Assembly: GCA_964630665.1 (NCBI GenBank)
Contig: CAZVVN010000006.1
Coordinates: forward strand, 1-64,000
DNA length: 64,000 nucleotides
From: an uncultured Acidiferrobacteraceae bacterium
GTDB taxonomy: Bacteria > Pseudomonadota > Gammaproteobacteria > Arenicellales > UBA868
Reading direction: 5' to 3'
Part shown: piece by piece, positions 10,217 through 62,079 of the stretch
Position numbering within the stretch: position 1 is the first letter of the stretch
Layout: each line of letters opens with the position of its first letter
Translations under genes and position numbers: made by a program
Notes under the pieces: model-generated
The model's input: only the letters and a program-made list of their open reading frames with translations
Databases searched by the model: none
What the model was told of the DNA's origin: nothing

Positions 10217-10241
10217 CGGATTGCTCTCGAGATGGTGGCCT

Positions 10242-23150: not shown

Positions 23151-23163
23151 CGAGGAGAGATCG

Positions 23164-25509: not shown

Positions 25510-28095
25510 TTGAGAACGGGGATTTCACCCATGTCAATTGAAACGTTGATCACACTGGTGATCCTGGCCGTCATTGCGGTCGCGATCTTCTACATCATCT
25601 CTGTCTGGGTCTACAAAAGGGCCCCGGCCAACATGGGTTTTATACGGACGGGGTTCGGCGGAACCAAGGTCTGCCTGGGCCAGGGGGCGATGGTGCTGCC
25701 GGTCTTCCATGAAGTCAGCTGGGTATCACTGGAGACCATAAAGCTGATTGTCAGCCGCTCCCGTGACCAGGCGATACTGACCTCAGACAAGATCCGTGTC
25801 GACGTGGTAGCCGAACTCTACACCCATGTCGGACACACGGAAGAGGACTTATTGACCGCCAGCCGTAGCCTCGGAGAGAAGACCTTCGACGCCGACAACG
25901 TCCGGAACCTTCTGGAGGCAAAGATCATCAGCGCCTTGCGCAGCTATGCAGCGACCAAGACACTGAACGAGTTGCACGAAAACCGAGACACCTTCGCAAA
26001 AGACATCAAGAGCCAGGTCCGCGACAGTTTCCAGGCCAATGGCCTGAACCTCGAAGAGGTCACCATCGTGACAATGGAGCAAACCGGCAAGGAGTATTTC
26101 AAGACCGATAACGTGTTCGATGCCGAAGGGCTCAAGATCATCACGGCGATCACCTCCAAGGCCAAACGCGAAGTTCACGACACCGAGAAGAAAGCCAGTG
26201 TCGCTATTCGTCAGAAAGAACTCGATACCCAACTCGAGCTGCTCGAGATCGAACGCCAGGAGGCCTTTGCCAAGGCCAATCAGGATAAAGCAGTGTCCAA
26301 TGAGCAGGCCCTGCGGGTTGGTGAAAAACAGCGTTACGTCCTTGAGCAGAAAATGGCGGTCGAACAGAAAGAAATCGAGAACGAACAGACGCTGGAGCAA
26401 CTTCGGACCGACCGGGATGTCGCGATCATCGAAGAGGCTCGTAAGCGTGAAATCGCCGAGATTGAGAAAACCCGGATCACCGAACAACAAAGGCGGGACC
26501 GGGAGATCCATCTAATCTCCAAGGCCAAGGAGGAGGAACTCGCCAATATCCAGCGGAACCTGGATCTGGAAAAAGCCGAGAAGGATCGGCAAATCGAACT
26601 TCACGTAAAATCAAAAGAAGAACAACTCGCCCAGATCCAGCGTGAACAGGCACTGGAGATTGCAGAGAAGGACAAGCAAATCCAGTCCATCGCAAACGAC
26701 CGGCAACGTCAGGAGGCTGAAATTCTCCGACAGACTGCGATCACGACCAGCGAGGAACAGGCCCGTGAAGAAAGGGTCAAGGCCAGTGAAATTGCCGAAG
26801 TCGCGATTCAACAGCAGAAACTTGCGAGCCGTCTGTCCCTGCTGGATGTGGACAAGAATGACGCTTTTGCAACAGCGACCCAGGAAAAAGAAATTGCCGA
26901 AGAGCAGGCTAGGATCCTGACCCAGAAGCAGTTGTTTTTGCTCGAGCAGAAGTGGCAGGTGGAGCAGGAAGAAATCCACAAGGAACTCTCTGTCGAACAG
27001 GCGCAGATAGACAAGGAAGCACAGGTCCTGCTGGAATCACAGAAAAAAGAAACGGCCGAAGTGCAACGCTCACTGGCCCGACAATCCGAGGAACGCAATC
27101 GGGAAATCGCCCTGGCGGCCAAGGAAATGGAGCTCGAGCAGGCCGAGGCGCGTCGCCTTGAGGCCACCGCGGCCCGGCAGAAAGCCGAGCACGAGGCCGA
27201 ATCGGTGCGGCACGTCGCGGATGCTGAGCGGCAACGTATCATTGACCTGATAGAGGCAGAGAACAGCGCCGAGACCCGGCGGGTGGAGGAAGAAAACAAG
27301 GCGCAGATCTCTAGAATGCATATGCTCGCCCAGGCCGAAGCCCGCAAAGAATCAGCACAGCGTGAGGCGGATGCCACCCTGACGAGAGCCAGGGCCTCCA
27401 GTGAGGCGCAGCAAATCAATGCGCTCGGTATTGAAAAAGAAGCTGCCGCCAAAGGCCGCGCCGAGATGGAGATCGAGCAACTGCGGGTTGACAACACCCA
27501 GCGCATGCTCGAGGCGGAGGCCAGTGGTATCGAGGCCAAAGCCGACGCGCTCAAGAAGTACAACCTGGCGGCGACTTTCCTGGAGCTTTCCAAGCTGCAT
27601 ATCGAGGCCGAACGTGATGTGCGCAGCGATCAGGCCAAAGCCATGGGCAATGCCCTGCAGGGTGCCCAGATCCGCATGTACGGCGGCAGCGACGATGGGA
27701 CCATAGACAACATTCGGAGCCTGTTTACCTCGGGCTTCGGCGTCGGTGAGGCCCTAGAAGGTCTTGCCCAGTCGATGCCGGAGGGCCTGCGGCAACGCTT
27801 TGCAGAAAACGGTATCCGTGGCCTGTTCGGTGCCCCCGGAGGTGCCGGGCGCTTCCAGCACGCGGTGACCGAAATTGGAGAGCTTCTGACGCAGACTTTG
27901 AAAACAAAGAAAAGCCGGGAAGAAACAGATTTCAGGGACGCCATGCTGCAGCTCGAAGAGGCCGCGGGATCGGATAAGTCCAAGTTAGAAGCAGTTTCGC
28001 TGCTGACTGATTTCAACCAGGCCGGGGTGTTCGATGAAGTGTCGTTCGAGACCGTCTGGAGCCTATTGCTGGCAACCTCGAAAAGCGTCAACTAA
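25510..28095 (+). CDS. Flotillin / SPFH (band 7) family protein with N-terminal TM helix and a very long coiled-coil region (861 aa)
   Basis: It has an N-terminal hydrophobic helix (IETLITLVILAVIAVAIFYII). The SPFH domain follows (GFIRTGFGGTKV...IVTMEQTGKEYF). About 450 aa of heptad-like E/K/Q/R/A-rich repeats come next, then a flotillin-like C-terminus. The gene sits 30 bp after hyuB. Confidence 0.8.
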   Translation: MRTGISPMSIETLITLVILAVIAVAIFYIISVWVYKRAPANMGFIRTGFGGTKVCLGQGAMVLPVFHEVSWVSLETIKLIVSRSRDQAILTSDKIRVDVVAELYTHVGHTEEDLLTASRSLGEKTFDADNVRNLLEAKIISALRSYAATKTLNELHENRDTFAKDIKSQVRDSFQANGLNLEEVTIVTMEQTGKEYFKTDNVFDAEGLKIITAITSKAKREVHDTEKKASVAIRQKELDTQLELLEIERQEAFAKANQDKAVSNEQALRVGEKQRYVLEQKMAVEQKEIENEQTLEQLRTDRDVAIIEEARKREIAEIEKTRITEQQRRDREIHLISKAKEEELANIQRNLDLEKAEKDRQIELHVKSKEEQLAQIQREQALEIAEKDKQIQSIANDRQRQEAEILRQTAITTSEEQAREERVKASEIAEVAIQQQKLASRLSLLDVDKNDAFATATQEKEIAEEQARILTQKQLFLLEQKWQVEQEEIHKELSVEQAQIDKEAQVLLESQKKETAEVQRSLARQSEERNREIALAAKEMELEQAEARRLEATAARQKAEHEAESVRHVADAERQRIIDLIEAENSAETRRVEEENKAQISRMHMLAQAEARKESAQREADATLTRARASSEAQQINALGIEKEAAAKGRAEMEIEQLRVDNTQRMLEAEASGIEAKADALKKYNLAATFLELSKLHIEAERDVRSDQAKAMGNALQGAQIRMYGGSDDGTIDNIRSLFTSGFGVGEALEGLAQSMPEGLRQRFAENGIRGLFGAPGGAGRFQHAVTEIGELLTQTLKTKKSREETDFRDAMLQLEEAAGSDKSKLEAVSLLTDFNQAGVFDEVSFETVWSLLLATSKSVN

Positions 28096-36711: not shown

Positions 36712-36732
36712 TTATATGCCCATGACGGGTAT

Positions 36733-49659: not shown

Positions 49660-49819
49660 GGATAAGCTTCTGATTTTTAACGATTGTTCAGTCCGGGCGC
49701 GGGGCGCTGACGTCAGATCGACACCTGATTCCTACTGAATAGAATACTATACTGGACTATTATGACCCTAGCTATGACGGGTGGAGATACTCAGGCCCGT
49801 CAGTACGAGGTCTCTTTTC

Positions 49820-51052
49820 ATGAGCCAGAATCTGACAACCAACGGCGATCGCTTTCTCGCTGATCTCGACGCTCTGCGGGAATTCGGCAAACAAGGCAGC
49901 GGAGTGGTCCGGCCCGCGTTCTCACCTCCTGATATCGATTCGCGGCGTTGGCTTACCGGCAAATTTGAAGCCTGTGGGTTGAGGCCCCGGTGGGACCCAG
50001 CGGCCAACCTGTTCGGAATGCCCCCGCAGTCCGGCAAACCGATCCTGATCGGATCACACTCCGACACCCAGCCCGAGGGCGGCTGGCTCGATGGCGCTTA
50101 TGGGGTCATTCTAGCCCTCGAAGTGGCGCGAACTTGTCAGGAAGCCGGTGGACCACCGGTCGCCGTGGTCTCATTTCAGGATGAAGAAAGTGCCTTCATG
50201 CCCATGACTGGCAGCTGCTTCTTCAGTGGTAACTTGTCCCGCGACACACTGTATGACCTGAGCAACGCTGCCGGACAACGTTACGGTGACCTCGCCAGTG
50301 CTCTGCCGGAACTCGAGCAACCTGAGTCACTGGATCCCGGCTTGTTCAGTGCTTTCCTGGAAGCCCACATCGAACAGGGCCCGGTTCTGGACCAGGCGGG
50401 TGAGATCATCGGGGTGGTTGAGACCATTGTCGGCAGTCGCCAGTTTGAAGTCACGATCACAGGCCAGCAGAACCACGCTGGGACGACGCCAATGGCCCTG
50501 CGACAGGACGCAGTCACTGGCTTTGCCGCTTTCATAACCAAGCTGGAAGAACGGTTCACAGAAATTGCAACACCACGTTCGGTCTGGACCATCGGCCGGG
50601 TGGACGTACGCCCCAATGCGCCTTCCATCGTTCCGGGAGCGCTGAACTGCTCCGTGCAGATGCGCGACGGCTCCCTCTCGCAACTGGATGCCATGTGCGA
50701 GATAACTCAGAAGGTGGCCGCCCAGACAGCAGCAGAAAGAAACCTCAACATTTCGCTGTTAGAGACAAAAGCTGTCGACCCGGTTGACATGGATGACCAG
50801 ATCATCGAGGCCTTCTGTGATGCTGCCGGATCAAATGCACCTGGTGCCTGGCGGCTTATGCCCTCCGGTGCGCTGCACGACGCCATGAACCTTGCGCCGC
50901 GAATCCCGACAGGGATGATGTTCGTGCCTTCGATCGGTGGCGTCAGCCACGCCTTCGAAGAGGACACCGAAAGAGAACACCTGGTTGCCGGTGTTCAGGT
51001 CATGGCCGATGCGGTCACCCGGCTCGCGGATCAACTGGGCGATAGCGGCTAG
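49820..51052 (+). CDS. M20-family Zn amidohydrolase: N-carbamoyl-L-amino-acid hydrolase / allantoate amidohydrolase type
   Basis: ATG at 49820 with GAGG upstream. The family traits read off the translation are [19 protein letters not shown] (the His/Asp metal-binding region of AmaB/AllC-like enzymes) and the insertion domain around NHAGTTPM. Its stop CTAG is shared with the convergent acyl-CoA synthetase stop. Confidence 0.75.
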
Positions 51053-52743
51053 GCTGTACTCGTCTCTTCCAGGTCGAGTTCTGAGACCATCTTCTCGCGC
51101 ATGAGAAACTTCTGCGGCTTACCCGTCACCGTCATTGGAAATTCCGTAACCGTGCGGACATATCGGGGAACCTTGAAATGCGCGATCTGGCCTTCGCAGT
51201 GGGTACGGACATCTTCGAGCGACACCTGCGCGCCCTGAGCTGGAACAATCCAGGCACAGATCTCTTCACCGTATTTCTCATCCGGAATTCCAAAAACCTG
51301 AACGTCCTGGATTCCGGGATGACCGAGTAGAAACTCCTCGATTTCGCGGGGGTAGACGTTCTCCCCACCGCGGATCAACATGTCTTTGACCCGCCCGACG
51401 ATGTTGCAGTAGCCCTCCGAATCAATCGTCGCGAGATCACCAGTGTGCATCCAACCATCACTGTCGATGGATTTAGCGGTTTGTTCCGGGTCCTCCCAAT
51501 ATTCCCGCATGACCAGATAACCACGGGTATGAAGTTCCCCTTGTTGCCCGGATGCCACGGTCTCACCCGATTCATTCACCACCTTGGCTTCGACATGCGG
51601 GTGAATCCGTCCAACCGTTGAGACGCGCCGCTCGATAGGATCGTCGACGGCACTCTGGAAAGATACCGGACTGGTCTCGGTCATGCCGTAAGCGATGGTC
51701 ATTTCCTCCAGGTGCATCTCGGAAACCACCCGCTTCATCAGTTCGATCGGACAGGGTGCGCCAGCCATAATACCGGTACGAAGAGTGCGCAGGTCGAACT
51801 GGCTGAAATCGGGCAAATTGACCATCGCACTGAACATTGTGGGAACACCATGCACGCCGGTACAACGTTCCTGACTCAGGGTCTGAAGCGTCTGCAAAGC
51901 ATCAAACCCCTCTCCGGGAAACACCATGGTACTTCCAGCTGTCACACAGGCGAGGTTACCCAGCACCATGCCGAAGCAGTGATAAAGTGGCACCGGTATG
52001 CACAATCGATCCTGGTGAGTCAGCCGCATGCAGTCTGCGACGAACCTGGCATTGTTGACGATATTCCGGTGGGTCAGTGTGGCGGCCTTGGGCGAACCGG
52101 TCGTACCGGAGGTGAACTGCAGGTTGATCGCGTCATCCGGAACCAGCGTAGCACCGATCGCATCCAGCCGCGCACGCTGTCCGGGCCCGCCTCGTGTCAT
52201 CACGTCACTGAAGCAGAGCATGCCCGCTACTGGAGCATCACCGACCTGGATCACGCTCTTCAGCGACGGAAGATTCTTGGATTCCAGCTGACCGGGCTGA
52301 CAGCGGCCAAGTTCCGGCGCAATATCCTGCAGCATTTCCAGGTACTGACTGGTCTTGAAGGAAACAGCGCTGATCAGCGCCTTGACGCCGGCCTTGGCCA
52401 GTGCGTATTGCAGCTCTGCCCGCCGATAGGCCGGGTTGATGTTGACCAGTATGGTGCCAATCCGCGCAGTGGCAAACTGGGCAAGGACCCACTCTGGCCG
52501 ATTGGGGGCCCAGATACCAACCCTGTCTCCTTTGTAGACACCTATAGCCAGCAGGCCAGCAGCAAGCTCATCGACCTTTTTCGAGAGCTGATCCCAAGTC
52601 CAGCGCTCTCCGGATTCGGAGAAAACACAGGCGTCACGGCTACCGTGTTGAGCCACGGTCCGGGCAAGAAAATCCGGGATCGTCACGGCCTCCAGTGTGG
52701 GCGTCTCCGGACCCTTGACATGCGAGTGGACTAAGCCTGCCAT
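51049..52743 (-). CDS. AMP-forming acyl-CoA synthetase / fatty-acid-CoA ligase
   Basis: The ATG at 52743 (MAGLVHS) avoids overlap with the upstream gene. The AMP-binding motif is region [12 protein letters not shown]. Other motifs are YGMTETSPV and the GWMHTGDLA...[20 protein letters not shown]-terminal domain. Confidence 0.8.
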
Positions 52744-52810
52744 CAGAGGTTCTCTGCTAGACATGAATCTGGTCGGACACATCCGGGACAACTCTGAGTC
52801 GGACGCGTTG

Positions 52811-55153
52811 TCACATCTGCCTCCAGTCACCCAGCTGCTCAAACGCATGAGCGGCCTGGTAGATAGTGGACTCACCGTAATGCCGGCTGATCAACATCAT
52901 CCCGACCGGCAACCCCTCTCCCATGCCACACGGAACAGACATGGCCGGATGGCCAGTGACGTCGAACGGGCTGGTATTTGCAAGCATCTCGAAAGCTCTC
53001 TGGCAGTACAGCGCCAGGGGGGCATCGGGCGGCGGCAGGGGGGTGGCCTTCATCGGCAACGTTGGCATCATCAGTAGGTCGCACTGCTCCAGTGTCGCAT
53101 TGTAGGTCTCTTTCAGTTTACGACCTAGGTTCTGGGCCTTAGCATAGAAATGCCCGCGGTAATGCCGGAGGAAATACTCTCCGAGAAACATGCTGACCTT
53201 GAGGGTATCGGACAACTCGTCGGCCCGATTAAGCCAGTTTGAATGATGATCGAGCAGACTGGTCGTATAGAGGCCCTTCCAGCCGGTGCCGAAACCGTTG
53301 CCCTTCATCATCTGGTTGGTCAGGCCTTCGAGCGCGATAGGTGTCCAGATGGCGGCGCCTTCATTATGCATCGGGATGGAGATGTCCTGGACATCAGCAC
53401 CGAGTTCACGCAGCCGGTCCGCGGCCGATCGCACTTTCGCGTCTACATCCGTCTCAGACTCGGGCCGACCAAAGCCTTCCTGTACCACCCCGATCTTCAG
53501 CCCCCGCACACCGCGACCAAGCGCCGAGGTGTAATGATCGACTCTGGGCGCATATTGTCTCGGGTCCAATCCATCTTCACCTGCGATCACTTCCAAGAGC
53601 AGCGCATTATCGGCAACGTTCTGTGTCATAGGACCAGTGTGATCGATCGTGGTCTCGATCGGCATCACACCCGTGTAGGGAACCAGCCCATGCGTCGGCT
53701 TCAAGCCGTAGCAACCGCAGTACGACGCGGGCATGCGGATTGACCCGCCCTGATCCCCTCCCATGGCCATGTCGACCTGCCCAGAAGCAACCAGGGCACC
53801 CGAGCCCGAGGACGAGCCCCCGGCTGAATACCCCATCCTGTGCGGATTGTGGCAGGGACCGGTCGCATTCGTGTGGCTACCACCTGAGAGACAGAAGTAC
53901 TCGCAGTGGGCTTTACCGACAATCGTACCACCGGCGTCGAGAATTCGTGTTACTACGGTCGCGTCCACATCCGGAATGTAGCCCTCCAGCGTAGACGCAC
54001 CATTCATCATGGGCACACCGGCCAGACTGATGTTGTCTTTAAGCGCCACTGTTTTTCCGGCAAGGGGTCCGCGTGGTGCACCTTTGACCTCACACTTGAC
54101 GTACCACGCATTGAGGGGGTTTTCTTCCGCGGAAGGCCGGTATCCCGGTGTTCTGGGATAATCCACCGTAGGCAGGTAATCGGGCATCCCATCGATCAGG
54201 TCATAGACCTTAATCGTGTCCTCCATGACCTCCAGGAACTCTGCTATCCGTTCGTCCGACAAGTGCATCCCCAGATCCAGGGTAATTTCCTTGAGTTGTT
54301 CGTGGGTCGGTCTCTTGACAGTCATATAGTCAAACCTCTTGTGGCTGGCCAACGCAGTCGCTATGGGCTGGCCTGCAGTTGCTGTGGTTTCGTTCTTAGG
54401 TATCAGTTCAGTTACGTGCTTGGGCATTGCATTGCTGGACCCAAAACCGACAAACTCCTCAATCAGTGAAGAATCCGTTGTATGCCCGTCACCTATTTCA
54501 CCGGTGATATCGCCTTTCTGCAACAGCAGGACCCGGTCCGACAGCGCCGTGATGAACTCAAGATTCTGTTCAACGAGCACGATACTCAATCCGTGCTCGG
54601 TATTCAGGCGTTTAAGCAGGTCAATAATACCCTCGACAATGGACGGTTGAATCCCTTCTGTCGGCTCATCCAAGAGTACCAGGTCCGGCTTGCTGATTAG
54701 GCAGCGAGCGATCGCCAGTATCTGCTGTTCCCCGCCGCTTAGGGCAGCCCCCGACCGATCGAGCAACGGTTGAAGCTGAGGGAAAGTCTGCACGATGGCT
54801 TCAATGGCCTCATGCTCTTCCTCACCATGCTCCACGACTCCCATCCTTAGGTTATCGTAGACCGAGAGCTGGGGAAAGATGCCTCTCCCCTGGGGCACAT
54901 ACCCCAACCCCAGGCGGGAGCGCTCATAAGCCGGCTCATCGGAAATATCCATTCCGTCGAATTCGATTCGACCCGAGGTCGCCGGCACGATCCCCATTAG
55001 CGTCTTCAGCAGAGTAGTCTTACCCATACCATTGTGCCCCAGCACACCGACGATCTGACCTTCAGCCACAGACAGATCTATGCCGTGAAGTATTGGCACT
55101 CGCCCATAACCCGCGTGCAGGTCCCGAACATTCAGCATCGGCGAGTCACTCAT
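52811..55153 (-). CDS. Fusion protein: N-terminal LivF-type ABC ATPase (about 237 aa) fused in-frame to a C-terminal amidase-signature enzyme (about 540 aa)
   Basis: A single uninterrupted 780-aa ORF. The N-terminus carries Walker [13 protein letters not shown], signature [15 protein letters not shown] and Walker [14 protein letters not shown] (LivF/UrtE-like). From about residue 239 it carries the amidase signature [47 protein letters not shown]. There is no stop codon between the two domains. Confidence 0.75.
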
Positions 55154-55881
55154 GCACTTTTCCGCTGGCCAAGGTAGACCTCCCGGACGCGCTCGTCCGA
55201 CGACACCTCGTCCATAGCACCTTCAGTCAGGATTCGGCCCTGGTGAAACACCGTGACCTTGCGCGCAATCATGCGGATGAACTGCATGTCGTGCTCGACA
55301 ACAATCATCGTTGCACTTCGATTTATTTCCTGGATGATTTCTGCAGTCCGAACAACCTCATCCTGAGTCATTCCAGCGGTCGGTTCATCGAGTATCACCA
55401 ACCAGGGTTCGCCCGCCAGCACCATTCCCAGTTCCACCAGTTGCCGCTGCCCGTGAGCGAGTGATCCCAGCTGAATTTTCCGTACCTTCCCCAGTTCCAG
55501 TCGGTCGATAACTTCCGTCGTGATCACCCGTGCCCGCTTGACACTGGCGGACTGGCTGGCCGAGAGCCAGATGTTCTCTTCGACATCCAGACCGTCGAAT
55601 ACATTCGGCACCTGGGTCTTGATCCCGACCCCCATTCTCGCAACCTGGTGGGATTCGCTGCCGGTGACATTGAAATCTCGTATCACAACATCACCGGCCG
55701 TCGGGCGCAACTGGGCGGTCAGGCATTTGAAAAAAGTGCTCTTGCCGGCGCCGTTGGGCCCAATTAGACAACGTAACTCATTCTCTCTCAGGGAAAAATC
55801 GACCCGATCAACAGCCACGACACCGCCGAAATGCATCGACAGCCCTCGGGTTTCGAGCACCACGTTACTCCTCAAGGCCAC
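55150..55881 (-). CDS. ABC transporter ATP-binding protein, LivG/UrtD-like
   Basis: Walker [13 protein letters not shown], signature [15 protein letters not shown] and Walker [12 protein letters not shown]. Its stop overlaps the fusion gene's start (ATGA). Confidence 0.85.
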
Positions 55882-56926
55882 CCTCCTTTACCCTTGTTCG
55901 ACCGCGTCGCCTAAATTTGCGGGCTGAGCGCGCCGTCATCCGTCGTGATCGTCTTCTGTCCCACATCTGCACCACCGACGGCACGATCCCCCTGGGCACC
56001 ACCAGGACAAAAATGATCAGAACCAACCCAAGGAACAAGTTGATGTTCACGACAGACTGCTGGCCAAGGAATGATGTCAGGTAAAACAAGACCAGGGCCC
56101 CGAAAATCGGCCCGATCAATGTGCCGCGACCGCCGATGATCACCCAGATAATCGCAAGTGCCGCGTTGTAGAGGTTGAATACATCCGGGGTAATTCGTCC
56201 AATCGAGTTGGCGAACATTATTCCCCCGAGGCCGGCGATGGCACCACCGACAGTGAACATGCAAAGTTTGTACAGGCGAACGTCATAGCCCAGTAGTTCT
56301 GTGCGCACTTCATTTTCCCGGATCGACACCGACACCCGCCCGAAATGCGATTTCGTCAGCCATACGCAGAGAAAATACGATCCCAGAAGGGCCACCATTG
56401 CGACATAGAACACCTGTTCTGGGAACAGGAACTGGTTGGCGTCCCAGGGAATGTTAATCGGCGGCACATTGATTCCGTTGAATCCTCCCAGCTTGGCAAT
56501 ACCAATCTTGTATTCGGGACCTGATGTCCGACGAATCACGCTGTACAGAATGAGTGTCAAGGTCAGGGTGATCACGGCCAAGTAAACATCGCTCAGGCGG
56601 CCGTAGAACATGAAATAGCCCAGGATCGCCGCCACGGCCGCCGCCACCAGAATTGCAATAAGTATTGCGCCGCTGCTGCCGCCGAAATTCAGTGCTGCAA
56701 TCGCGTAGGCATAACCACCAATCCCAAAAAACGCCGTCTGGCCAAAACACAGAATGCCGCCGTAACCCCAGATCAAGCCCAGGCTCAAGGCAAGTATTGC
56801 CAGGCTGACCGCGGTGGTCAGGCTGATCACCGCAAAGAGATCGAGGCTCTGGGGCGCAGCGAACAACACGACCAAGCCGACGATCCCAATCGACACGAGA
56901 GCGTTGGTCTCTCTGGTTCGTTTCAC
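55865..56926 (-). CDS. ABC transporter permease, LivM/UrtC-like
   Basis: 353 aa, multi-TM, branched-chain-amino-acid-type permease architecture. It overlaps the neighbouring genes by a few nt. Confidence 0.8.
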   Translation of the reverse strand: MKRTRETNALVSIGIVGLVVLFAAPQSLDLFAVISLTTAVSLAILALSLGLIWGYGGILCFGQTAFFGIGGYAYAIAALNFGGSSGAILIAILVAAAVAAILGYFMFYGRLSDVYLAVITLTLTLILYSVIRRTSGPEYKIGIAKLGGFNGINVPPINIPWDANQFLFPEQVFYVAMVALLGSYFLCVWLTKSHFGRVSVSIRENEVRTELLGYDVRLYKLCMFTVGGAIAGLGGIMFANSIGRITPDVFNLYNAALAIIWVIIGGRGTLIGPIFGALVLFYLTSFLGQQSVVNINLFLGLVLIIFVLVVPRGIVPSVVQMWDRRRSRRMTARSARKFRRRGRTRVKEGGLEE

Positions 56927-57792
56927 AGGCTTCGCTTAAAGAAACGACCAGTGATGCCCTGTGGCATCAAACGCAGCAAGACGATGGCCAACAGGAGCAG
57001 TGCCACCTCACCCATGGTCGGGCCAATCACGAAGCTGACGATACCGTTGATACCCCCCAGTAGGATAGATGCCGAGGCTGTTCCGGCAAGAATTGCAGTG
57101 CCACCGGAGATAACGGTGATGAAGGCCTTACCGATGTAGATCGCTCCGATGGTTGGCAGAATACCAGTGATTGGTGCCAGCAGGCCTCCAGCGAGGCCTG
57201 ATAGGGCAGCACCGATCCCGAAGGTTGTCGAGTACACGCGCTGGGTGCTGACTCCCAGCGCTGCAGCCATGTCTGCAGCCTGCATGGTGCCGCGGGCCAC
57301 CAGGCCCAGCTTGGTGTAGCGCAGCAGAAAGTACAGCAGGACGACCAGGAGAATCGCCACCAGGATGAGAAACAACTCATACCCACTCGAGCTGAATTCC
57401 CCGATGGTAATCGGACCGAACGGTGGCGCAATTGTTGTGGCCGTTTGCGCTCCAAAGATTGTCGTGATCAAGCCGATAAAGAACAAGCTCAACCCCCAGG
57501 TGGCCAGCAGGGTATCGACCATCCGGCCGTACAGAAAACGGATCAGAACCCACTCAACAATCAGTCCAATGATCCCGACGATCAGCGGCGCCAGGATGAA
57601 CATCGCAATCCAAATATTGACGCCACCGTTGGTGGCCACAATGACCGTGTACCCGCCCAGCATTAGGAACTCCCCATGGGCAAGGTTGATCACCCGCATC
57701 ATCCCGAAAATAACCGCCAACCCGATGCTGATCAGCACCAGGTTGGCGATGCCGTAGACGATTTGAAGCGCCAGAGCGGCTACAAGATCCAC
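56923..57792 (-). CDS. ABC transporter permease, LivH/UrtB-like
   Basis: 289 aa, multi-TM. The conserved N-terminal INLAHGEFLMLGGY is typical of LivH-type permeases. Confidence 0.8.
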   Translation of the reverse strand: MDLVAALALQIVYGIANLVLISIGLAVIFGMMRVINLAHGEFLMLGGYTVIVATNGGVNIWIAMFILAPLIVGIIGLIVEWVLIRFLYGRMVDTLLATWGLSLFFIGLITTIFGAQTATTIAPPFGPITIGEFSSSGYELFLILVAILLVVLLYFLLRYTKLGLVARGTMQAADMAAALGVSTQRVYSTTFGIGAALSGLAGGLLAPITGILPTIGAIYIGKAFITVISGGTAILAGTASASILLGGINGIVSFVIGPTMGEVALLLLAIVLLRLMPQGITGRFFKRSL

Positions 57793-57829: not shown

Positions 57830-59083
57830 CTAGTCGATGCCTGCTGCCTTCAAACCGTTTTCAAAGTAGAAGGTCGACTGGTTCGGCGTGCTGATCAGAT
57901 CACAAACCAGCTGAGTGTCGGTCGGCTGCTGCTGTTCGTAGGTCTGGATAATGTTGAACTTCTGGTTCTGCAGCTCCGCGAGATACACGTTCTGAACCGC
58001 ATGATGCGTCTGCGGGTCGATCGAGATGTTGCCACTCGGGCCGGCAAAACTCGTCGGGGCATCCAGCGCTTCGATCACCTTCATCCGCTCGGCGGTGCCA
58101 GCAGCTTTGACGGCCTCGGCCCACAGATAGATTCCTTCGTACTGCCGGGCGGCCAGTTCGTTTAGGTACGGCGCGTCGGCGCCAAATCGGGCCTTAAACC
58201 GTTCCACGAACGCCTTGTTGTCGGCCGACTGGATCTCCTCGAAGTAACTGTACGCGACGATCATGCCGTCACCTTCCTCGGCAGAAATCATCAGATGCTC
58301 ATTGCCCACACCAAAAGTGGTGGAAGCAATGGGAACACTCTTGCTCATGCCGGCGGCAGCATACTGCCGGTAAAACGAGACGTGCGCGCCGCCGACCAGA
58401 GCGGACATCACCATGTCCGGTTTTGCCGCCTGGATCTTCTTGATGGTCGGCCCGAAGTTGGTGACATCGAGGGGGAAGAACTCTGTCTCCACTGGATCGC
58501 CGCCATTGTCACGAACATACTTCTGTACCCAATCCGCTGTGATGTGGCCATAGTTGTAGTCGGCCGCAATGATGTAGACCTTCTTGCCCCACTTGTTCAT
58601 GGTGTACGGCACCAGTTTTTCGACGGTCTGGCCCGGGGTCGAACCTGTACAGTAGTTGTTGGTGTCACAGACACCGCCTTCGTATAGCGTGTTGTAGAAA
58701 TAGAGAGTCTGGTAGCGGCTCAGTAACGGCCTGATCGATTCTCTTGAAGCCGATGTGATACCTGCCTGGACCACGTCCACACGATCGCTGGTCGCTGCCT
58801 TGGTCGCGTACTGCGTGTAAAACTGGATGGTCGACTGAGGATCGTAGACCGTAAGATCTACCTGCTTGCCGAGCAGGCCGCCCGCTGCGTTGATTTCCTC
58901 TACTGCCAGGTGACTCGCATCCACCATCGGCCGGCCATAGATATCAAGCCCACCGGTCTGGTCCAGTATCACTGCCATCTTCAGTTCGTCGGCAGCTTGG
59001 GCGCGGCCAATAAAAGCCGGTGCAGCGACAGCCGCGGCGGCAGCCGACGTACTTTTGAGAAAGTTTCTGCGATTGATTGACAT
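57830..59083 (-). CDS. Periplasmic substrate-binding protein of a Liv/Urt/Fmd-type ABC importer (type I PBP) with Tat signal
   Basis: 417 aa. The N-terminal RRNFLKSTSAAAAAVAAPAFIGRAQA is a Tat signal. The body resembles the UrtA/FmdD/AmiC-like amide/urea-binding family. AAAGGAGAAATAG lies upstream of the ATG. Confidence 0.8.
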   Translation of the reverse strand: MSINRRNFLKSTSAAAAAVAAPAFIGRAQAADELKMAVILDQTGGLDIYGRPMVDASHLAVEEINAAGGLLGKQVDLTVYDPQSTIQFYTQYATKAATSDRVDVVQAGITSASRESIRPLLSRYQTLYFYNTLYEGGVCDTNNYCTGSTPGQTVEKLVPYTMNKWGKKVYIIAADYNYGHITADWVQKYVRDNGGDPVETEFFPLDVTNFGPTIKKIQAAKPDMVMSALVGGAHVSFYRQYAAAGMSKSVPIASTTFGVGNEHLMISAEEGDGMIVAYSYFEEIQSADNKAFVERFKARFGADAPYLNELAARQYEGIYLWAEAVKAAGTAERMKVIEALDAPTSFAGPSGNISIDPQTHHAVQNVYLAELQNQKFNIIQTYEQQQPTDTQLVCDLISTPNQSTFYFENGLKAAGID

Positions 59084-59103
59084 TCTATTTCTCCTTTTGG
59101 TCT

Positions 59104-59134
59104 AGAAAATTATGTCGGATCGGCCAACCGACCC
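59104..59134 (-). terminator. Candidate weak intrinsic terminator between the flotillin gene and the Liv/Urt-like operon
   Basis: Minus-strand hairpin GGTCGGTTGGCCGATCCGAC (stem TCGG/CCGA extended with one mismatch) followed by ATAATTTTCT. It lies 45 nt downstream of the flotillin stop and upstream of the SBP RBS. Confidence 0.3.
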
Positions 59135-59178
59135 TTGTTTGCCTTCTACTAATCACTCCATCCGGCGTAACGCCCGAA

Positions 59179-60789
59179 TTACTCCTCGCTGGGTTCCCCA
59201 GAAGCCTGATCATCCGATGATTCAGACACCTGATCAGAAATACCTTTGATGCCATCACCTATGTTGACTCCAATTTCCTCACCCAGTTTTTTCACGGCAG
59301 GCAGCTGCAGTGCCATCGACAGAACACCGTCGACGACCTGATTCACCACTGCCTTGTCGGCACTACTGTCCTGCCCTCCTCCACCACCTGAGTTGCCAAA
59401 CCCGGTGACATGATTGATCCGTATGCTGTCGATTTTCTCTGCCGGTTTCACCATGCTGTCGACCACGTCCGGCAGAATCTCCAGCTTGCGCATATGCAGC
59501 TTCATCTCGATCAGATCATCACTTTGACTGTTTTCGGAAGCGATCAGCGCAGCTTCTCCTTCTGCTCGGGCCAGCAGTTCCGAACGCTGAGCATCAGCCC
59601 GGGTCTTTGTGGCTTCCGCCTCTGCTTTTGCCATCGCCATGAGGGTTCCGGTCTCACTGCCAACACGCGTTTCATCGACTTCGGCCTGCTCGCGAGCCCG
59701 GATCATCGCCAACGCTCGCTCGCGCTCGGCAGCGGCTACCTCGCGGGTCGTCTCAAGATCTTCTTTTGCCTTGATCTCTTCGGAACGGGCCTGCTCGACA
59801 GCAACTTGGGCTCTGGCGACTTCCGCTTCCTGCGCGGCAATCACGATGTCCCGTTCCAAGCGGCGCAGTTCAGAGGACTGGGTCGCCTCGAGCTCGGCCT
59901 TACGGACTTCCCGCCCGGTCTGTATTTCCTTGGCCTTGACCTCCTTGTCTTTTTCGATTCGGGCGAATTCACGCCGTTGCTCGGATTCGGACTGTTCCTC
60001 GGCAATCGCAGCATCGCTCGCAGTGCGCTCACGCTCGATGTTCAACTGCTGCCGAATCTGCGCTTCTTCCTCCTCCTGATCAATATTCAAACGCTTCTTG
60101 GTCGCGTCTAGCTTGCTCATCCGAACTGCTACATCCGCATCGGCCTCGATCACGGCGCGTTCTTTCTTGCTGTTTGCAACGATTTCCGCCAGGCGCCGCA
60201 GGCCGATTGCATTGAATGCGTTGTTTTCGTCAAGTGTGTGGAAAGGCGCCTGGTCCAGTCGGGTCAGCGAAACCGATTCCAGTAACAGACCGTTCTGTAA
60301 AAGATTGGGTTTGAGGATCTCTGTGATCTGTCCGACATACCTGCCCCGCTCGTTCTGCAGTTCATCCATCGTATAGTTAGCGGCCACGGATAGAATCGCA
60401 TCGACCAGTTTGCCTTCAAGGGTCTCGGCAAGGTCTTCCGAACGAAAGGTCTTCCCGGCCAAGGCCTGAGCTGCGGTCGCGACACCCGAATCGCTGGGGT
60501 CCACCCGAACGTAGAACTCGACCGTGGCATCGACTCGCAAACGGTCTACAGTGATCACAGATTTCTCAGCGTTGCGAACGACCTCGAGCCGGGTCGTTTT
60601 CATGTTGACTTCCGATACACGGTGAAGGAACGGAAGCGCCAGAAACCCCCCGTCCGTTATGATTTTCTGACCCCCCAGACCGGTTCGGATCAGCGCAATT
60701 TCGCGAGATGCTTTCCGGTAGAAGCGGTTCAGCAGAATGATGATCACCACAAGGGCAACAATCAGTACGATCAACCAGACCCAGTACAT
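59179..60789 (-). CDS. Flotillin / SPFH (band 7) family protein (YqiK/FloT-like), 536 aa
   Basis: N-terminal TM (YWVWLIVLIVALVVIIILL), then the SPFH domain (IALIRTGLGGQKIITDGG...). An E/A/R-rich coiled coil follows, then a Gly-rich acidic C-terminus. It is a paralog of 25510..28095. Confidence 0.8.
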   Translation of the reverse strand: MYWVWLIVLIVALVVIIILLNRFYRKASREIALIRTGLGGQKIITDGGFLALPFLHRVSEVNMKTTRLEVVRNAEKSVITVDRLRVDATVEFYVRVDPSDSGVATAAQALAGKTFRSEDLAETLEGKLVDAILSVAANYTMDELQNERGRYVGQITEILKPNLLQNGLLLESVSLTRLDQAPFHTLDENNAFNAIGLRRLAEIVANSKKERAVIEADADVAVRMSKLDATKKRLNIDQEEEEAQIRQQLNIERERTASDAAIAEEQSESEQRREFARIEKDKEVKAKEIQTGREVRKAELEATQSSELRRLERDIVIAAQEAEVARAQVAVEQARSEEIKAKEDLETTREVAAAERERALAMIRAREQAEVDETRVGSETGTLMAMAKAEAEATKTRADAQRSELLARAEGEAALIASENSQSDDLIEMKLHMRKLEILPDVVDSMVKPAEKIDSIRINHVTGFGNSGGGGGQDSSADKAVVNQVVDGVLSMALQLPAVKKLGEEIGVNIGDGIKGISDQVSESSDDQASGEPSEE

Positions 60790-61146
60790 AAGCCGTTGGC
60801 CTCCTCGTTTTTATCATCGACCGGGCGCCGTGGCTTCTCCGGCCGATAGTCATCCTATGCCGTTCAGATCAGCTGGCGGCACCTTTTGGTGGAATCTCGC
60901 ACAGTAGATGAGGTGAAGCCTGTAAGTCAATATATTTCTGGGTAACAATTACGAATGACATCTGAACTCAACAAGCCCGCGTCGCCCAGGGATAGTCTTA
61001 ATCTAGTGCAACAATCCGAGGTATCGTCAGCTCGCTCAAAGCGTCCGAGCGCCGTAGCCCGATCTCGGCGGAAGACAAGAATCAGCTACCCCACGACACA
61101 CCATCCCTGATACGCTACCGGCGGTTTCACAATCGCAGGCAAGAAC

Positions 61147-62079
61147 ATGAGCTTGGCAGTTGACGATCTTCTTCAGAGCAATCATCCAGTCTTTTTGGAC
61201 GGGGGTATCGGTACCGAATTGCAACGCCTGGGCGCACCGATGGACCACGAAGCGTGGTGCGCTGTTGCACTGGAGACCCATCCTGACCTGGTCCGACAGG
61301 TTCACCGCTCCTATATCGAGTCCGGTGCCGACATCATTACGGTCAACACCTACGCGACAACCCGCCAGGCGCTCAAGAGTGCTGGCATGGAAGAACAGTT
61401 TACCCGCTGGAACATCCGCGCAGTTCAGATTGCCAGGGAGACGCTGGAGGAATCGGCGCCTGAACGAGATATCCTGATTGCCGGGTCGGTTTCGACCTTT
61501 GGAAATTTCAACCGGTTCAGCGACGCTGAGCTGGAACCCTATTTCCATGAGCAGGCCGAGATCCTAGTTGAGAACGGCGTCGATCTAGTCATCCTCGAGA
61601 CGCTTTCATCCCGGGTGTCAACGATTGTCACCGCCCTGAATGCGCTGGCTGATTTCGACCTGCCCGTGTGGGTCGCTATCAGCGGCGTTCAGGACCGAAA
61701 CTCAGGTGCACTTTATTTGGGCGTAGAAGAAAGCCCTGCCCATAGCGATTCGGTCACTACCCACGAGCCCTTCGCCGATGCGATCCAGAAGATCATGGTC
61801 GAAGGCGGCTCGGCACTGCTGCTCATGCACTCCCCCGTTAATGTCTGCAGGCCTGGCCTTGAAGTGATGAGCGAGAATTATTCGGGGGTTCTGGGTGCTT
61901 ACCCCAATGCCGGCTACTGGCAACGTCCCGACTGGGCCTTTGTCGACCAGATCACTCCCGATGACTACCTTAAAGCCGCCGGGGACTGGATCGACGCCGG
62001 CGCGAAAATCGTCGGCGGCTGCTGCGGCATCGGCCCGGCGCACATCAGCGCGCTTTCGGCCGAGCTCCGCGGCAGATAG
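61147..62079 (+). CDS. Homocysteine S-methyltransferase family protein (MmuM/BHMT-like Hcy-binding domain)
   Basis: 310 aa. N-terminal FLDGGIGTELQR, then IITVNTYATT and the C-terminal Zn-binding IVGGCCGIGPAHI motif. Confidence 0.8.
   Translation: MSLAVDDLLQSNHPVFLDGGIGTELQRLGAPMDHEAWCAVALETHPDLVRQVHRSYIESGADIITVNTYATTRQALKSAGMEEQFTRWNIRAVQIARETLEESAPERDILIAGSVSTFGNFNRFSDAELEPYFHEQAEILVENGVDLVILETLSSRVSTIVTALNALADFDLPVWVAISGVQDRNSGALYLGVEESPAHSDSVTTHEPFADAIQKIMVEGGSALLLMHSPVNVCRPGLEVMSENYSGVLGAYPNAGYWQRPDWAFVDQITPDDYLKAAGDWIDAGAKIVGGCCGIGPAHISALSAELRGR

What the first reader, a model, noticed from the sequence alone, without database searches (positions are those of the whole stretch)
59179..60789. 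Second flotillin paralog heading the amide-ABC/amidase operon
A 536-aa flotillin (TM + SPFH + coiled coil + Gly-rich acidic tail) lies directly upstream of the Liv/Urt-like importer operon that ends in the LivF-amidase fusion and an acyl-CoA synthetase. A weak hairpin (59104..59134) separates them. Two diverged flotillins, each next to a different nitrogen-compound uptake and hydrolysis module in one window, is more than expected by chance.
Basis: inference. Interest (0 to 1): 0.5.

Follow-up and report, generated by a model that had tools for sequence, protein, structure and literature searches.

The report
Flotillin built into amide-uptake operon
A membrane-scaffold protein (flotillin) is a conserved first gene of a seven-gene cassette that imports an amide, splits it with an amidase tethered to the transporter's own ATPase, and activates the acid to acyl-CoA, which gives a bacterial flotillin a defined, testable client.

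Summary
Window 59179-60789 (-) encodes a 536-aa flotillin (TM, SPFH, long coiled coil, Flot domain, Gly-rich acidic tail). It sits 95 nt upstream of a Urt-like ABC importer, a UrtE-like ATPase::amidase fusion and an acyl-CoA synthetase.

The linkage is not chance. In 80 species-level genomes (Alpha-, Beta-, Gammaproteobacteria; flotillin 49-98% identical) the binding-protein gene follows the flotillin in 77 of 77 testable loci. The ATPase and amidase are one reading frame in 61 of 63. The synthetase follows in 52 of 59. Seven of seven look-ups anchored on the fusion protein, and three roseobacter plasmids (two read in full) whose flotillin is only 36-39% identical, show the same cassette.

Eight related operons with a separate amidase gene have no flotillin and no adjacent synthetase. 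No NfeD/YqiJ partner is present. The spacer hairpin is not significant, and terminator-like hairpins occur in only 2 of 79 spacers.

Best reading (inferred): a dedicated flotillin scaffold or cage for a transport-hydrolysis-activation metabolon for small amides.

The second flotillin (25531-28095, between HyuAB and an ABC ATPase) is real, but its context could be checked only down to 78% identity. I found no description of this cassette in the papers searched.

The parts
59179..60789 (-). Flotillin (Flot2), 536 aa: N-terminal TM helix, SPFH domain, long coiled coil, Flot domain, Gly-rich acidic tail. It is the first gene of the cassette.
   Evidence: ORF and translation. Pfam PF15975 and PF01145. 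AF2 model. Foldseek best hits are human flotillin complex chains 9BQ2/9L3G. Conserved as first gene in 80 genome loci, 7 fusion-anchored loci and the two roseobacter plasmid loci read in full.
60790..61146 (-). Upstream intergenic region, divergent from a homocysteine S-methyltransferase gene (61147-62079 +). It is the presumed promoter and leader of the cassette. It holds a TTGACT...TCTACT promoter-like pair near 60905-60935 and the RBS GAGGAGG.
   Evidence: Sequence read directly. The consensus scan called no promoter here. No Rfam match. The upstream neighbour is not conserved across loci.
59084..59178 (-). 95-nt flotillin-to-binding-protein spacer with a weak hairpin (about 59103-59148) and the RBS AAAGGAGA.
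   Evidence: Sequence. Fold z = -1.04, not significant. Spacer median is 58 nt and terminator-like hairpins occur in 2 of 79 loci.
57830..59083 (-). Periplasmic substrate-binding protein, TAT signal, Urt/AmiC-like (Peripla_BP_5/6).
   Evidence: Pfam. NCBIfam urea-type models match but fall below their cut-offs. The PDB search finds 8TG1, urea-binding proteins (7S6E) and AmiC (1PEA).
56923..57792 (-). UrtB/LivH-like permease.
   Evidence: Pfam BPD_transp_2. NCBIfam UrtB models below cut-off.
55865..56926 (-). UrtC/LivM-like permease.
   Evidence: Pfam BPD_transp_2. NCBIfam UrtC models below cut-off.
55150..55881 (-). UrtD/LivG-like ABC ATPase.
   Evidence: Pfam ABC_tran and BCA_ABC_TP_C. NCBIfam UrtD 252 bits against a cut-off of 304.
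52811..55153 (-). UrtE/LivF-like ABC ATPase (residues 1-235) joined by a flexible linker of about 48 aa to an amidase-signature amidase (residues 284-780).
   Evidence: Pfam ABC_tran and Amidase. NF005565 amidase subfamily 821 bits, above the 545 cut-off. Rhodococcus amidase 3A1K at E 7e-141. Walker [18 protein letters not shown]372, GGSSSG 445-450 and S471 read in the sequence. The linker is 40-137 aa and Pro/Ala/Ser/Gly-rich in homologues.
51049..52764 (-). AMP-forming acyl-CoA synthetase. The mechanical ORF starts at GTG 52875 inside the amidase gene. The likely true start is ATG 52764 or 52743.
   Evidence: Pfam AMP-binding and AMP-binding_C. NF009233 850 bits, above the 832 cut-off, matching from residue 50. 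N-terminal translation. Directly downstream of the fusion in 52 of 59 testable loci.
25531..28095 (+). Second, diverged flotillin-like protein (Flot1, 854 aa from the ATG). It has a duplicated coiled-coil segment of about 190 residues and lies between HyuA-HyuB and an ABC ATPase. It belongs to a separate module.
   Evidence: tblastn 30% identity to Flot2. Pfam Band_7 only. Homologues are all 854 aa. Context is conserved at 78% identity. Internal repeat scores 270 against 97 +/- 11 for shuffles.

Best explanation
Shown: the flotillin is an integral, conserved first gene of a seven-gene cassette. The order is flotillin, periplasmic binding protein, two permeases, ATPase, ATPase::amidase fusion, acyl-CoA synthetase. 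The cassette is found in Alpha-, Beta- and Gammaproteobacteria and on plasmids. The flotillin co-occurs with two other features, the tethering of the amidase to the transporter ATPase and the adjacent synthetase.

Inferred pathway: a small primary amide is bound in the periplasm by a Urt/AmiC-like protein and imported. It is hydrolysed at the transporter's cytoplasmic exit by the tethered amidase, giving ammonia and a carboxylic acid. The synthetase then traps the acid as acyl-CoA.

Inferred role of the flotillin: its N-terminal helix followed by positive charges places the bulk of the protein in the cytoplasm, on the same face as the ATPase-amidase and the synthetase. By analogy with the flotillin and HflK/C cages, it oligomerises into a ring or dome that corrals or stabilises several importer complexes. 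Each importer carries only one amidase, and I recall that amidases of this family work as dimers, so clustering importers would let tethered amidases pair. It would also keep import, hydrolysis and activation in one membrane patch. That arrangement would trap a membrane-permeant substrate taken up at low concentration.
For: Domain content of the window genes.

Synteny, anchored on the flotillin:
- The binding-protein gene is next to the flotillin in 77 of 77 testable loci from 80 species-level genomes.
- ATPase and amidase are one frame without stops in 61 of 63.
- The synthetase lies directly downstream in 52 of 59.

Synteny, anchored on the fusion protein:
- Seven of seven look-ups show the full cassette.
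- The two roseobacter plasmids read in full (flotillin 37-39% identical) have the same order. The record of one ends inside the fusion gene. Hit coordinates on a third plasmid fit the same order (flotillin 36%).
- The 120 best database hits to the fusion are all fused.

Contrast set: eight operons with the same importer order but a separate amidase gene have no flotillin and no adjacent synthetase. For amidase-anchored samples that is 10 of 10 against 0 of 8. My Fisher exact calculation gives about 2e-5, not corrected for phylogeny.

Co-transcription: the spacer median is 58 nt, terminator-like hairpins occur in 2 of 79 spacers, and there is one stop/start overlap.

Insertion point: in some loci the flotillin sits between an AmiC-like gene and the binding-protein gene. 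Those two genes are adjacent in the flotillin-less versions.

Substrate class:
- The amidase domain is close to the Rhodococcus amidase 3A1K. I recall that enzyme as nitrile-hydratase-linked.
- It is 62-69% identical to plasmid amidases, some of them beside nitrile hydratase genes.
- The binding protein resembles urea-binding proteins and AmiC.

Flotillin fold: the best structural matches are chains of the flotillin cage complex.

Precedents: S. aureus FloA binds the ABC permease IsdF and is needed for heme uptake (PMC10147376). SPFH cages delimit membrane patches and can enclose a client (PMC11260169).
Against: - No direct evidence shows that this flotillin touches the transporter, the amidase or the synthetase.
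- Oligomerisation is assumed by analogy. The AF2 monomer is of modest quality (pLDDT 63), and the conserved C-terminus is unmodelled.
- The synthetase is not directly downstream in 7 of 59 loci, so a three-enzyme metabolon is not obligatory.
- The substrate is unknown.
- The fused-versus-unfused contrast rests on 18 amidase-anchored loci and is not phylogenetically corrected. All flotillin-bearing cassettes form one clade in a rough tree, so the co-occurrence could reflect a single ancestral event rather than repeated selection.
- Transcript boundaries are untested. The window's spacer (95 nt) is longer than the median.
Confidence: 0.55

Rival explanations
1. Membrane protection. The flotillin is co-expressed with the cassette but acts on the lipid bilayer rather than on the transporter. 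It would buffer fluidity or integrity against amphipathic or solvent-like amides and the fatty acids released from them, as proposed for Bacillus flotillins and for PspA-type systems.
For: - The synthetase belongs to a fatty-acid CoA ligase family.
- Relatives of the amidase domain sit beside nitrile hydratase genes on plasmids.
- Flotillins are found in varied contexts elsewhere, such as an ABC-rhodopsin cluster in Hoeflea.
- A role for Bacillus flotillins in fluidity is my own recollection, not checked here.
Against: - Eight related operons with the same importer order but a separate amidase gene, presumably taking similar substrates, carry no flotillin.
- The flotillin tracks the tethering of the amidase, which a generic membrane-stress role does not predict.
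- The binding protein is of the urea/AmiC type, which suggests small polar amides rather than membrane-active ones.
Confidence: 0.18
2. Regulatory gate. The flotillin binds the importer and modulates its activity or turnover, rather than organising a metabolon. This would resemble the way stomatin-type proteins modulate channels and HflK/C controls FtsH access to substrates.
For: - SPFH proteins with specific clients are known to regulate them, for example HflK/C with FtsH. Structures of these complexes appear among the fold matches, and the cage literature describes the idea.
- Being the first gene of the operon would give stoichiometric co-production.
Against: - It does not explain the co-occurrence with the amidase tether and the synthetase.
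- The cassette encodes no protease or NfeD partner.
Confidence: 0.12
3. No functional coupling. The flotillin is an independent gene with its own promoter and terminator, and it is carried along with the operon by shared ancestry or transfer.
For: - The window has a 95-nt spacer with a hairpin followed by UUUU.
- All flotillin-bearing cassettes form one clade in a rough tree, so the link may date from one event.
Against: - Adjacency and orientation are kept across three proteobacterial classes and down to 36-39% flotillin identity.
- The hairpin is not significant, and 77 of 79 spacers lack terminator-like hairpins.
- One locus has overlapping stop and start codons.
- In several loci the flotillin lies inside the unit, between the AmiC-like gene and the binding-protein gene.
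Confidence: 0.05

Closest known systems
YqiK/FloT-type bacterial flotillins (SPFH2 subfamily) with their NfeD partner YqiJ/YuaF
   Same: - Same architecture: N-terminal membrane helix, SPFH domain, long coiled coil, C-terminal Flot domain.
- About 35-36% identical to E. coli plasmid YqiK-like and Burkholderia flotillins.
   Different: - The canonical partner gene is absent. Burkholderia sp. SFA1 has YqiJ (PF07290) directly upstream of its flotillin, but no YqiJ homologue is found in the window or in any cassette locus.
- The published survey of SPFH operons reports NfeD pairing for SPFH2 and mentions no ABC transporter link (PMC2636767).
- The cassette clade carries a DENNAFN signature where the YqiJ-paired flotillin, the Hoeflea flotillin and the window's Flot1 have D/K-x-x-N-x-F-D-A-E-G.
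S. aureus FloA and the IsdF/FhuC heme ABC importer
   Same: A flotillin interacts directly with an ABC importer permease and is required for nutrient uptake. The authors call it the first nutrient acquisition system shown to depend on flotillin microdomains (PMC10147376).
   Different: - FloA is a general, separately encoded scaffold with many clients.
- Here the flotillin is encoded in the importer's own operon and co-varies with an enzyme tethered to the ATPase. That implies a single dedicated client.
Flotillin-1/2 and HflK/C-FtsH cages
   Same: - The best structural matches of the model are flotillin cage subunits 9BQ2 and 9L3G, followed by prohibitin and HflK/C.
- These proteins form large domes that delimit a membrane patch and can enclose a client enzyme (PMC11260169).
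   Different: - Cage formation is not shown here.
- The proposed client would be a transporter with a tethered hydrolase on the cytoplasmic face, not a protease.
- Global TM-scores are low (0.20-0.27), because the long helices of the monomer model are oriented arbitrarily.
Urt urea and Fmd short-chain-amide ABC importers, AmiC-type amide sensing, and the nitrile hydratase-amidase-acyl-CoA synthetase pathway
   Same: - Five-component Urt-like importer. The binding protein resembles urea-binding proteins and AmiC.
- The amidase domain is close to Rhodococcus amidase 3A1K.
- Unfused relatives sit with nitrile hydratase, aldoxime dehydratase and AmiC/ANTAR genes.
- From my own knowledge, not checked here: Fmd of Methylophilus imports short-chain amides and urea, and Pseudomonas chlororaphis B23 follows its amidase with an acyl-CoA synthetase.
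   Different: - All Urt equivalog models score below their cut-offs, so this is not a urea transporter by NCBI's criteria.
- The amidase is fused to the second ATPase.
- A flotillin heads the operon.

Membership tests
Flotillin (SPFH superfamily, bacterial SPFH2/YqiK-FloT type) | SPFH/Band 7 domain | tested here: met
   PF01145, E 8.6e-14, 52 bits against a cut-off of 23.6. Foldseek matches SPFH domains of stomatin and flotillin-2 with target-normalised TM 0.70-0.80.
Flotillin (SPFH superfamily, bacterial SPFH2/YqiK-FloT type) | C-terminal Flotillin domain (PF15975) | tested here: met
   PF15975, E 6.9e-35, 120 bits against a cut-off of 27, covering the whole profile.
Flotillin (SPFH superfamily, bacterial SPFH2/YqiK-FloT type) | N-terminal membrane anchor and a long coiled coil between the SPFH and C-terminal domains | tested here: met
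   Hydrophobic residues 3-20 followed by RFYRKASR. The AF2 model has helices at 2-28, 208-372 and 382-419, with pLDDT 75-91 over most of the long helix (residues 221-360).
Flotillin (SPFH superfamily, bacterial SPFH2/YqiK-FloT type) | Whole-chain structural resemblance to flotillin cage subunits | tested here: inconclusive
   The top four Foldseek hits are 9BQ2 and 9L3G chains (E 1e-9 to 5e-8, about 400-428 aligned columns). TM-scores are only 0.20-0.27 and the model is of modest quality. phmmer finds no PDB sequence at E <= 0.001.
Flotillin (SPFH superfamily, bacterial SPFH2/YqiK-FloT type) | Operon partner of the NfeD/YqiJ/YuaF family | tested here: not met
   No conserved upstream gene in 72 loci. 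The YqiJ protein from the Burkholderia locus finds nothing significant in the window or in any cassette locus. Pfam does recognise YqiJ in the control locus. This is a typical feature, not a strict one: the 2009 survey found SPFH2 without NfeD2 in 17 genomes.
Flotillin (SPFH superfamily, bacterial SPFH2/YqiK-FloT type) | Homo-oligomeric ring or cage; enrichment in detergent-resistant membrane | not testable with these tools
   Needs multimer modelling, cryo-EM or fractionation.
Urt-type urea ABC transporter | Equivalog-level match of UrtA-E components | tested here: not met
   Best models are the urea types, but all fall below their cut-offs: UrtA 365 against 495, UrtB 241 against 374, UrtC 269 against 576, UrtD 252 against 304, UrtE 265 against 286. 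The five-component architecture is shared.
Amidase-signature amidases, NF005565 (PRK07235) subfamily | Subfamily HMM above cut-off, and an intact Lys/cis-Ser/Ser catalytic triad | tested here: met
   NF005565 scores 821 bits against a cut-off of 545. 3A1K aligns at E 7e-141 over residues 284-774. K372 in ALKDN, GGSSSG at 445-450 and S471 in GGSIR are read in the sequence. Assigning them to the Rhodococcus triad (Lys96, Ser171, Ser195 with an offset of 276) rests on my recollection of that structure.
ABC transporter nucleotide-binding domain (fusion N-terminus) | Walker A, ABC signature and Walker B motifs | tested here: met
   GHNGMGKTT at 39-47, LSGGEQQ at 139-145 and LVLLDEP at 159-165 are read in the sequence. 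PF00005 at E 9.6e-34.
AMP-forming acyl-CoA synthetase, NF009233 (PRK12583) family | Family HMM above cut-off, with AMP-binding and C-terminal domains | tested here: met
   850 bits against a cut-off of 832. PF00501 and PF13193.

The most novel reading that the evidence does not exclude
This flotillin clade forms a cytoplasmic-face cage that encloses several amide importers, their flexibly tethered amidases and perhaps the acyl-CoA synthetase. That would be a genetically encoded, membrane-bound nanocompartment for transport-coupled catabolism. Operon-encoded flotillins may be a wider class of accessory subunits for ABC importer plus hydrolase modules. Candidate further examples are the window's Flot1 with HyuAB, and the Neorhizobium cluster of Liv-type ABC genes, aldehyde dehydrogenase, flotillin and D-aminopeptidase.
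Probability: 0.25. Interest if true: 0.85.

Novelty: new variant of a known kind. Interest (0 to 1): 0.62.

Why it matters
What bacterial flotillins do is still unclear. They are usually separately encoded, pleiotropic, and often dispensable in the laboratory (for example the P. aeruginosa SPFH survey, PMC13086221). A flotillin clade hard-wired into one catabolic operon offers a single genetically defined client. It also offers a natural control, because related operons with an untethered amidase lack the flotillin.

The scaffold or cage hypothesis therefore becomes directly testable in culturable carriers. Those with strain names seen here include Sulfitobacter sp. THAF37, Sulfitobacter sediminis MJW-29, Marimonas arenosa KCTC 52189 and Lutimaribacter marinistellae KCTC 42911.

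The cassette also points to a widespread route for scavenging small organic amides as nitrogen and carbon sources in marine, freshwater and soil Proteobacteria. In that route the hydrolase is physically tethered to the importer.

Tried and rejected
- **Terminator or attenuator between the flotillin and the binding-protein gene.** The hairpin is not significant. The consensus scan lists it only as a weak 5-bp site. Terminator-like hairpins occur in 2 of 79 spacers.
- **Riboswitch or known RNA in the leader or spacer.** No Rfam match, apart from one sub-threshold CRISPR-repeat hit inside a permease gene, taken as chance.
- **NfeD/YqiJ partner.** None found. The 170-aa ORF at 61036-61548 upstream has no Pfam hit and lies antisense to the methyltransferase gene, so I take it as spurious.
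- **Conserved upstream regulator.** None across the 80 loci. Some loci have a MarR gene plus an AmiC-like gene, and some have a pyroglutamyl-peptidase-like gene. Neither was seen upstream of the operon in the window.
- **Sequence search of the flotillin against the PDB.** No hit at E <= 0.001. NCBIfam has no model for it.
- **Urea transporter reading.** Rejected, because all Urt equivalog cut-offs are missed and the operon carries an amidase rather than a urease.
- **Paper for the closest binding-protein structure, 8TG1.** Not found.
- **Literature search for the cassette.** Four term combinations returned nothing relevant.
- **Deeper sampling of the Flot1 context.** The best 120 homologues are all at least 77% identical. 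Plasmid hits are only generic flotillins at or below 37% identity.
- **First tree script.** It timed out and was redone. The tree is neighbour-joining without bootstrap and should be treated as rough.
Full report
**1. What is at the coordinates**

Window 59179-60789 on the minus strand is a 536-codon ORF starting at ATG. Pfam finds the Flotillin domain PF15975 (E 6.9e-35, residues 387-508) and the SPFH/Band 7 domain PF01145 (E 8.6e-14, residues 33-212). The sequence begins with a hydrophobic stretch (residues 3-20) followed by RFYRKASR. By the positive-inside rule this places the rest of the protein in the cytoplasm; that step is an inference. The centre is E/A/R/K-rich. Near the end lie GFGNSGGGGG and an acidic tail.

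An AlphaFold2 model built on 19 homologues is of modest quality (mean pLDDT 63). It shows a helix at 2-28, an SPFH fold at 69-180, one 165-residue helix at 208-372 and a second helix at 382-419. Its best Foldseek matches in the PDB are the four chains of the human flotillin-1/2 cage (9BQ2, 9L3G; E 1e-9 to 5e-8 over about 400-428 columns). Prohibitin, HflK/C, stomatin, erlin and vault follow. Global TM-scores are low, at 0.20-0.27. A sequence search of the PDB finds nothing. The protein is a flotillin by domain content and fold.

**2. The downstream genes**

On the same strand follow six genes:

| Coordinates (-) | Product |
|---|---|
| 57830-59083 | TAT-signal Peripla_BP_5/6 binding protein |
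| 56923-57792 | BPD_transp_2 permease |
| 55865-56926 | BPD_transp_2 permease |
| 55150-55881 | ABC ATPase |
| 52811-55153 | 780-aa protein joining an ABC ATPase to an amidase |
| 51049-52875 | AMP-binding enzyme |

NCBIfam places the five transport components nearest to the urea (Urt) models, but all score below their cut-offs. The amidase part passes the NF005565 amidase subfamily (821 bits against 545). The last gene passes the NF009233 fatty-acid CoA ligase family (850 against 832).

The amidase part is a close homologue of Rhodococcus amidase 3A1K (E 7e-141). On plasmids it is 62-69% identical to stand-alone amidases. Some of these sit beside nitrile hydratase genes and others beside Urt-like importers. 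The binding protein resembles 8TG1, urea-binding proteins and AmiC.

Walker A, signature and Walker B motifs are readable in the sequence, as are K372, GGSSSG and S471 of the amidase. The mechanical ORF of the synthetase starts inside the amidase gene. Family homology begins at residue 50, and ATG codons at 52764 and 52743 are more likely starts.

**3. The spacer**

The flotillin stop and the binding-protein start are 95 nt apart, with a good ribosome-binding site. It is no more stable than shuffled sequence (z = -1.04). No Rfam family matches the operon region at a meaningful level.

**4. Is the linkage conserved?**

I aligned the flotillin with 18 homologues and used the alignment to scan one genome per bacterial species. 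At least 593 stretches encode a relative, and the best 80 were fetched. They come from Rhodobacterales, Hyphomicrobiales, Geminicoccales, Minwuia, Burkholderiales, Arenicellales, Thiotrichales, Granulosicoccaceae and others. Flotillin identity runs from 49 to 98%.

Results of tblastn with the window's proteins:
- The same binding-protein gene lies directly after the flotillin in 77 of 77 loci where the contig continues. The other three contigs end at the flotillin.
- Among 63 loci that reach the amidase, the ATPase and amidase are one reading frame without stops in 61. The exceptions are L014, where the ATPase and amidase matches fall in different frames on a contig that ends inside the amidase gene, and L020, where the amidase region is only partly matched.
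- The synthetase lies directly downstream in 52 of 59 testable loci.

Across 79 loci the spacer between the flotillin and the binding-protein gene has a median of 58 nt, and only 2 contain a terminator-like hairpin with a U tail.

**5. The reverse test**

Searching with the fusion protein gave 120 best hits. All are fused (772-869 aa, with ABC_tran plus Amidase). I looked up the genomic place of seven of them, chosen for length and contig size. All seven show flotillin, binding protein, permease, permease, ATPase, ATPase::amidase, synthetase. In one (L101) the flotillin stop overlaps the binding-protein start by 17 nt.

**6. A second, much more divergent set**

On plasmids of Sulfitobacter sp. 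THAF37 and Pseudosulfitobacter pseudonitzschiae the same cassette order is annotated. The Pseudosulfitobacter record ends inside the fusion gene. On a plasmid of Sulfitobacter alexandrii, the positions of the flotillin and fusion hits fit the same order, but I did not fetch its annotation. The three flotillins are only 36-39% identical to the window's, and the fusions 57-59%. In a rough neighbour-joining tree all cassette flotillins form one clade. The plasmid type sits on a long branch within it. A Neorhizobium flotillin is sister to the clade. A YqiJ-paired Burkholderia flotillin and a Hoeflea flotillin lie outside.

**7. The natural control**

Eight plasmid operons have the same importer order followed by a homologous but separate amidase gene. 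They come from Agrobacterium, Paracoccus, Thioclava, Shinella, Pleomorphomonas, Aureimonas, Tistrella and Rhizobium. None has a flotillin within 8-9 kb, and none has a synthetase directly downstream. Several carry a divergent MarR gene plus an AmiC-like gene, an AmiC-like gene plus an ANTAR gene, or nearby nitrile hydratase and aldoxime dehydratase genes.

In cassette loci that also have the MarR and AmiC-like pair, the flotillin lies between the AmiC-like gene and the binding-protein gene, that is, inside the unit.

Counting only loci reached through the amidase or fusion, the flotillin is present in 10 of 10 fused and 0 of 8 unfused operons. My Fisher exact calculation gives about 2e-5. This number is not corrected for shared ancestry, so it may reflect a single event.

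**8. What is missing**

Flotillins of the YqiK/FloT type are usually paired with an NfeD-type gene (YqiJ/YuaF) (PMC2636767). The Burkholderia control locus shows that pair. No such gene is found in the window or in any cassette locus, and the gene upstream of the flotillin is not conserved. The cassette clade and its Neorhizobium sister carry a DENNAFN motif. At that position the YqiJ-paired Burkholderia flotillin, the Hoeflea flotillin and Flot1 have D/K-x-x-N-x-F-D-A-E-G.

**9. The tether**

Between the ATPase and the amidase lies a stretch of 40-137 residues. It is rich in Pro, Ala, Ser and Gly and highly variable in length and sequence. That is what a flexible tether looks like, not a rigid domain interface.

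**10. Most likely mechanism**

*Shown:* a conserved, apparently mobile seven-gene unit in which the flotillin, the amidase tether and usually the synthetase occur together.

*Inferred:* a small primary amide is bound in the periplasm and imported. It is hydrolysed at the exit by the tethered amidase, and the acid is trapped as acyl-CoA. The flotillin lies on the same face of the membrane. By analogy with the flotillin and HflK/C cages (PMC11260169), it oligomerises and corrals or stabilises the importers.

Each importer has one UrtE-type subunit and therefore one amidase. I recall that amidases of this family are dimers, but did not check this. Clustering would then let tethered amidases pair. 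Keeping the steps together would help to trap a membrane-permeant substrate at low concentration.

An experimental precedent exists. S. aureus FloA binds the ABC permease IsdF and is needed for heme uptake (PMC10147376).

I put about 0.9 on the functional link and about 0.55 on the scaffold or cage mechanism. The rivals are a membrane-protection role (0.18), a regulatory gate (0.12) and no coupling at all (0.05).

**11. The other flotillin**

Window 25531-28095 (+) encodes an 854-aa SPFH protein that is 30% identical to the first over residues 4-360. It is packed between HyuB (31 nt upstream of the mechanical ORF start at 25510) and a PotA/MalK-like ABC ATPase (24 nt downstream). The matching permeases and binding protein are convergent. 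It contains a tandem duplication of about 190 coiled-coil residues.

The same context is present in a relative at 78% identity. All 120 best homologues are at least 77% identical, so deeper conservation could not be tested.

HyuA-HyuB also lies directly upstream, on the same strand, of the cassette flotillin in four Rhodobacterales loci, and nearby in three others. This is a recurring hint, not a result.

**12. Limits**

- The window is a catabolic island for organic nitrogen, so within-window adjacency alone proves little.
- The 80 loci are the best matches to this flotillin, so they describe its own clade and not flotillins in general.
- Transcripts, protein contacts, oligomeric state and substrate are all untested.
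- I found no paper describing this cassette with the searches I ran. That is not proof that none exists.

**13. Verdict**

This is a new variant of a known kind: a flotillin clade without an NfeD partner, built into an amide import, hydrolysis and activation operon.

Noticed in passing
window 25531-28095 (+): The other flotillin-like protein (854 aa) contains a tandem duplication of about 190 coiled-coil residues (222-414 against 422-607; score 270 against 97 +/- 11 for shuffles). It lacks a Pfam Flot-domain match. If it forms a cage, the wall would be about twice as long.
   Followed up: partly
window 8324-12614 (-), 21081-25479 (+), 34549-38808 (-), 16635-18032 (+), 40853-42166 (+), 12675-13316 (-), 38870-39565 (-), 49781-51052 (+): The window is an organic-nitrogen catabolic island. 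It holds three HyuA/HyuB pairs, two further amidase-signature amidases, two isochorismatase-family hydrolases and an M20 carbamoylase-type hydrolase.
   Followed up: partly
L013, L022, L037, L040 (about 4.6-9.7 kb, + strand); also L028, L035, L094: HyuA-HyuB lies directly upstream of the cassette flotillin on the same strand in four Rhodobacterales genomes, and nearby in three more. This echoes the window's HyuA-HyuB-Flot1 arrangement with a different flotillin clade.
   Followed up: partly
L086 5480-13485 (Neorhizobium sp. SOG26 plasmid): The sister flotillin (42% identical) is also embedded in a transport and hydrolase cluster: Liv-type permease, two ABC ATPases, aldehyde dehydrogenase, flotillin, D-aminopeptidase. 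The second ATPase ORF is 449 aa and has an unexplained C-terminal extension of about 190 aa.
   Followed up: partly
L088 2257-10617 (Hoeflea sp. IMCC20628 plasmid): A flotillin follows an ABC transporter and a gene annotated as bacteriorhodopsin on one strand.
   Followed up: no
window 52811-55153 (-) residues 234-240, and 59179-60789 (-) residues 460-471: The fused ATPase ends in EF[TV]GFG followed by glycines. Most flotillins of this clade have I[TS]GFG followed by a Gly-rich stretch. Unfused ATPases end in ...VGM or ...IGM. The shared motif is short and may be chance.
   Followed up: partly
L101 1-2248: RtcB and RNA 3'-phosphate cyclase genes lie directly upstream of the cassette flotillin in one genome. 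A P. aeruginosa SPFH gene (PaFlo8) is reported inside the rtc locus (PMC13086221).
   Followed up: no
plasmid collection: A YqiK-like flotillin gene (36% identical) matches 303 plasmid records. Of these, 227 are from Escherichia and 259 are typed as conjugative. A few of the E. coli records are chromosome-sized.
   Followed up: no
window 61036-61548 (-): A 170-aa ORF with no Pfam hit lies antisense to the homocysteine S-methyltransferase gene (61147-62079 +). Its apparent conservation in L001 and L003 follows from that overlap. It is probably not a gene.
   Followed up: yes
window 57227-57264 (-): A sub-threshold Rfam match to CRISPR-DR29 (26.8 bits against 39, E 0.029) lies inside the permease gene. 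Taken as chance.
   Followed up: no
window 51049-52875 (-): The mechanical start of the acyl-CoA synthetase ORF (GTG 52875) overlaps the amidase gene by 65 nt. Homology starts near residue 50, so ATG 52764 or 52743 is the more likely start.
   Followed up: partly
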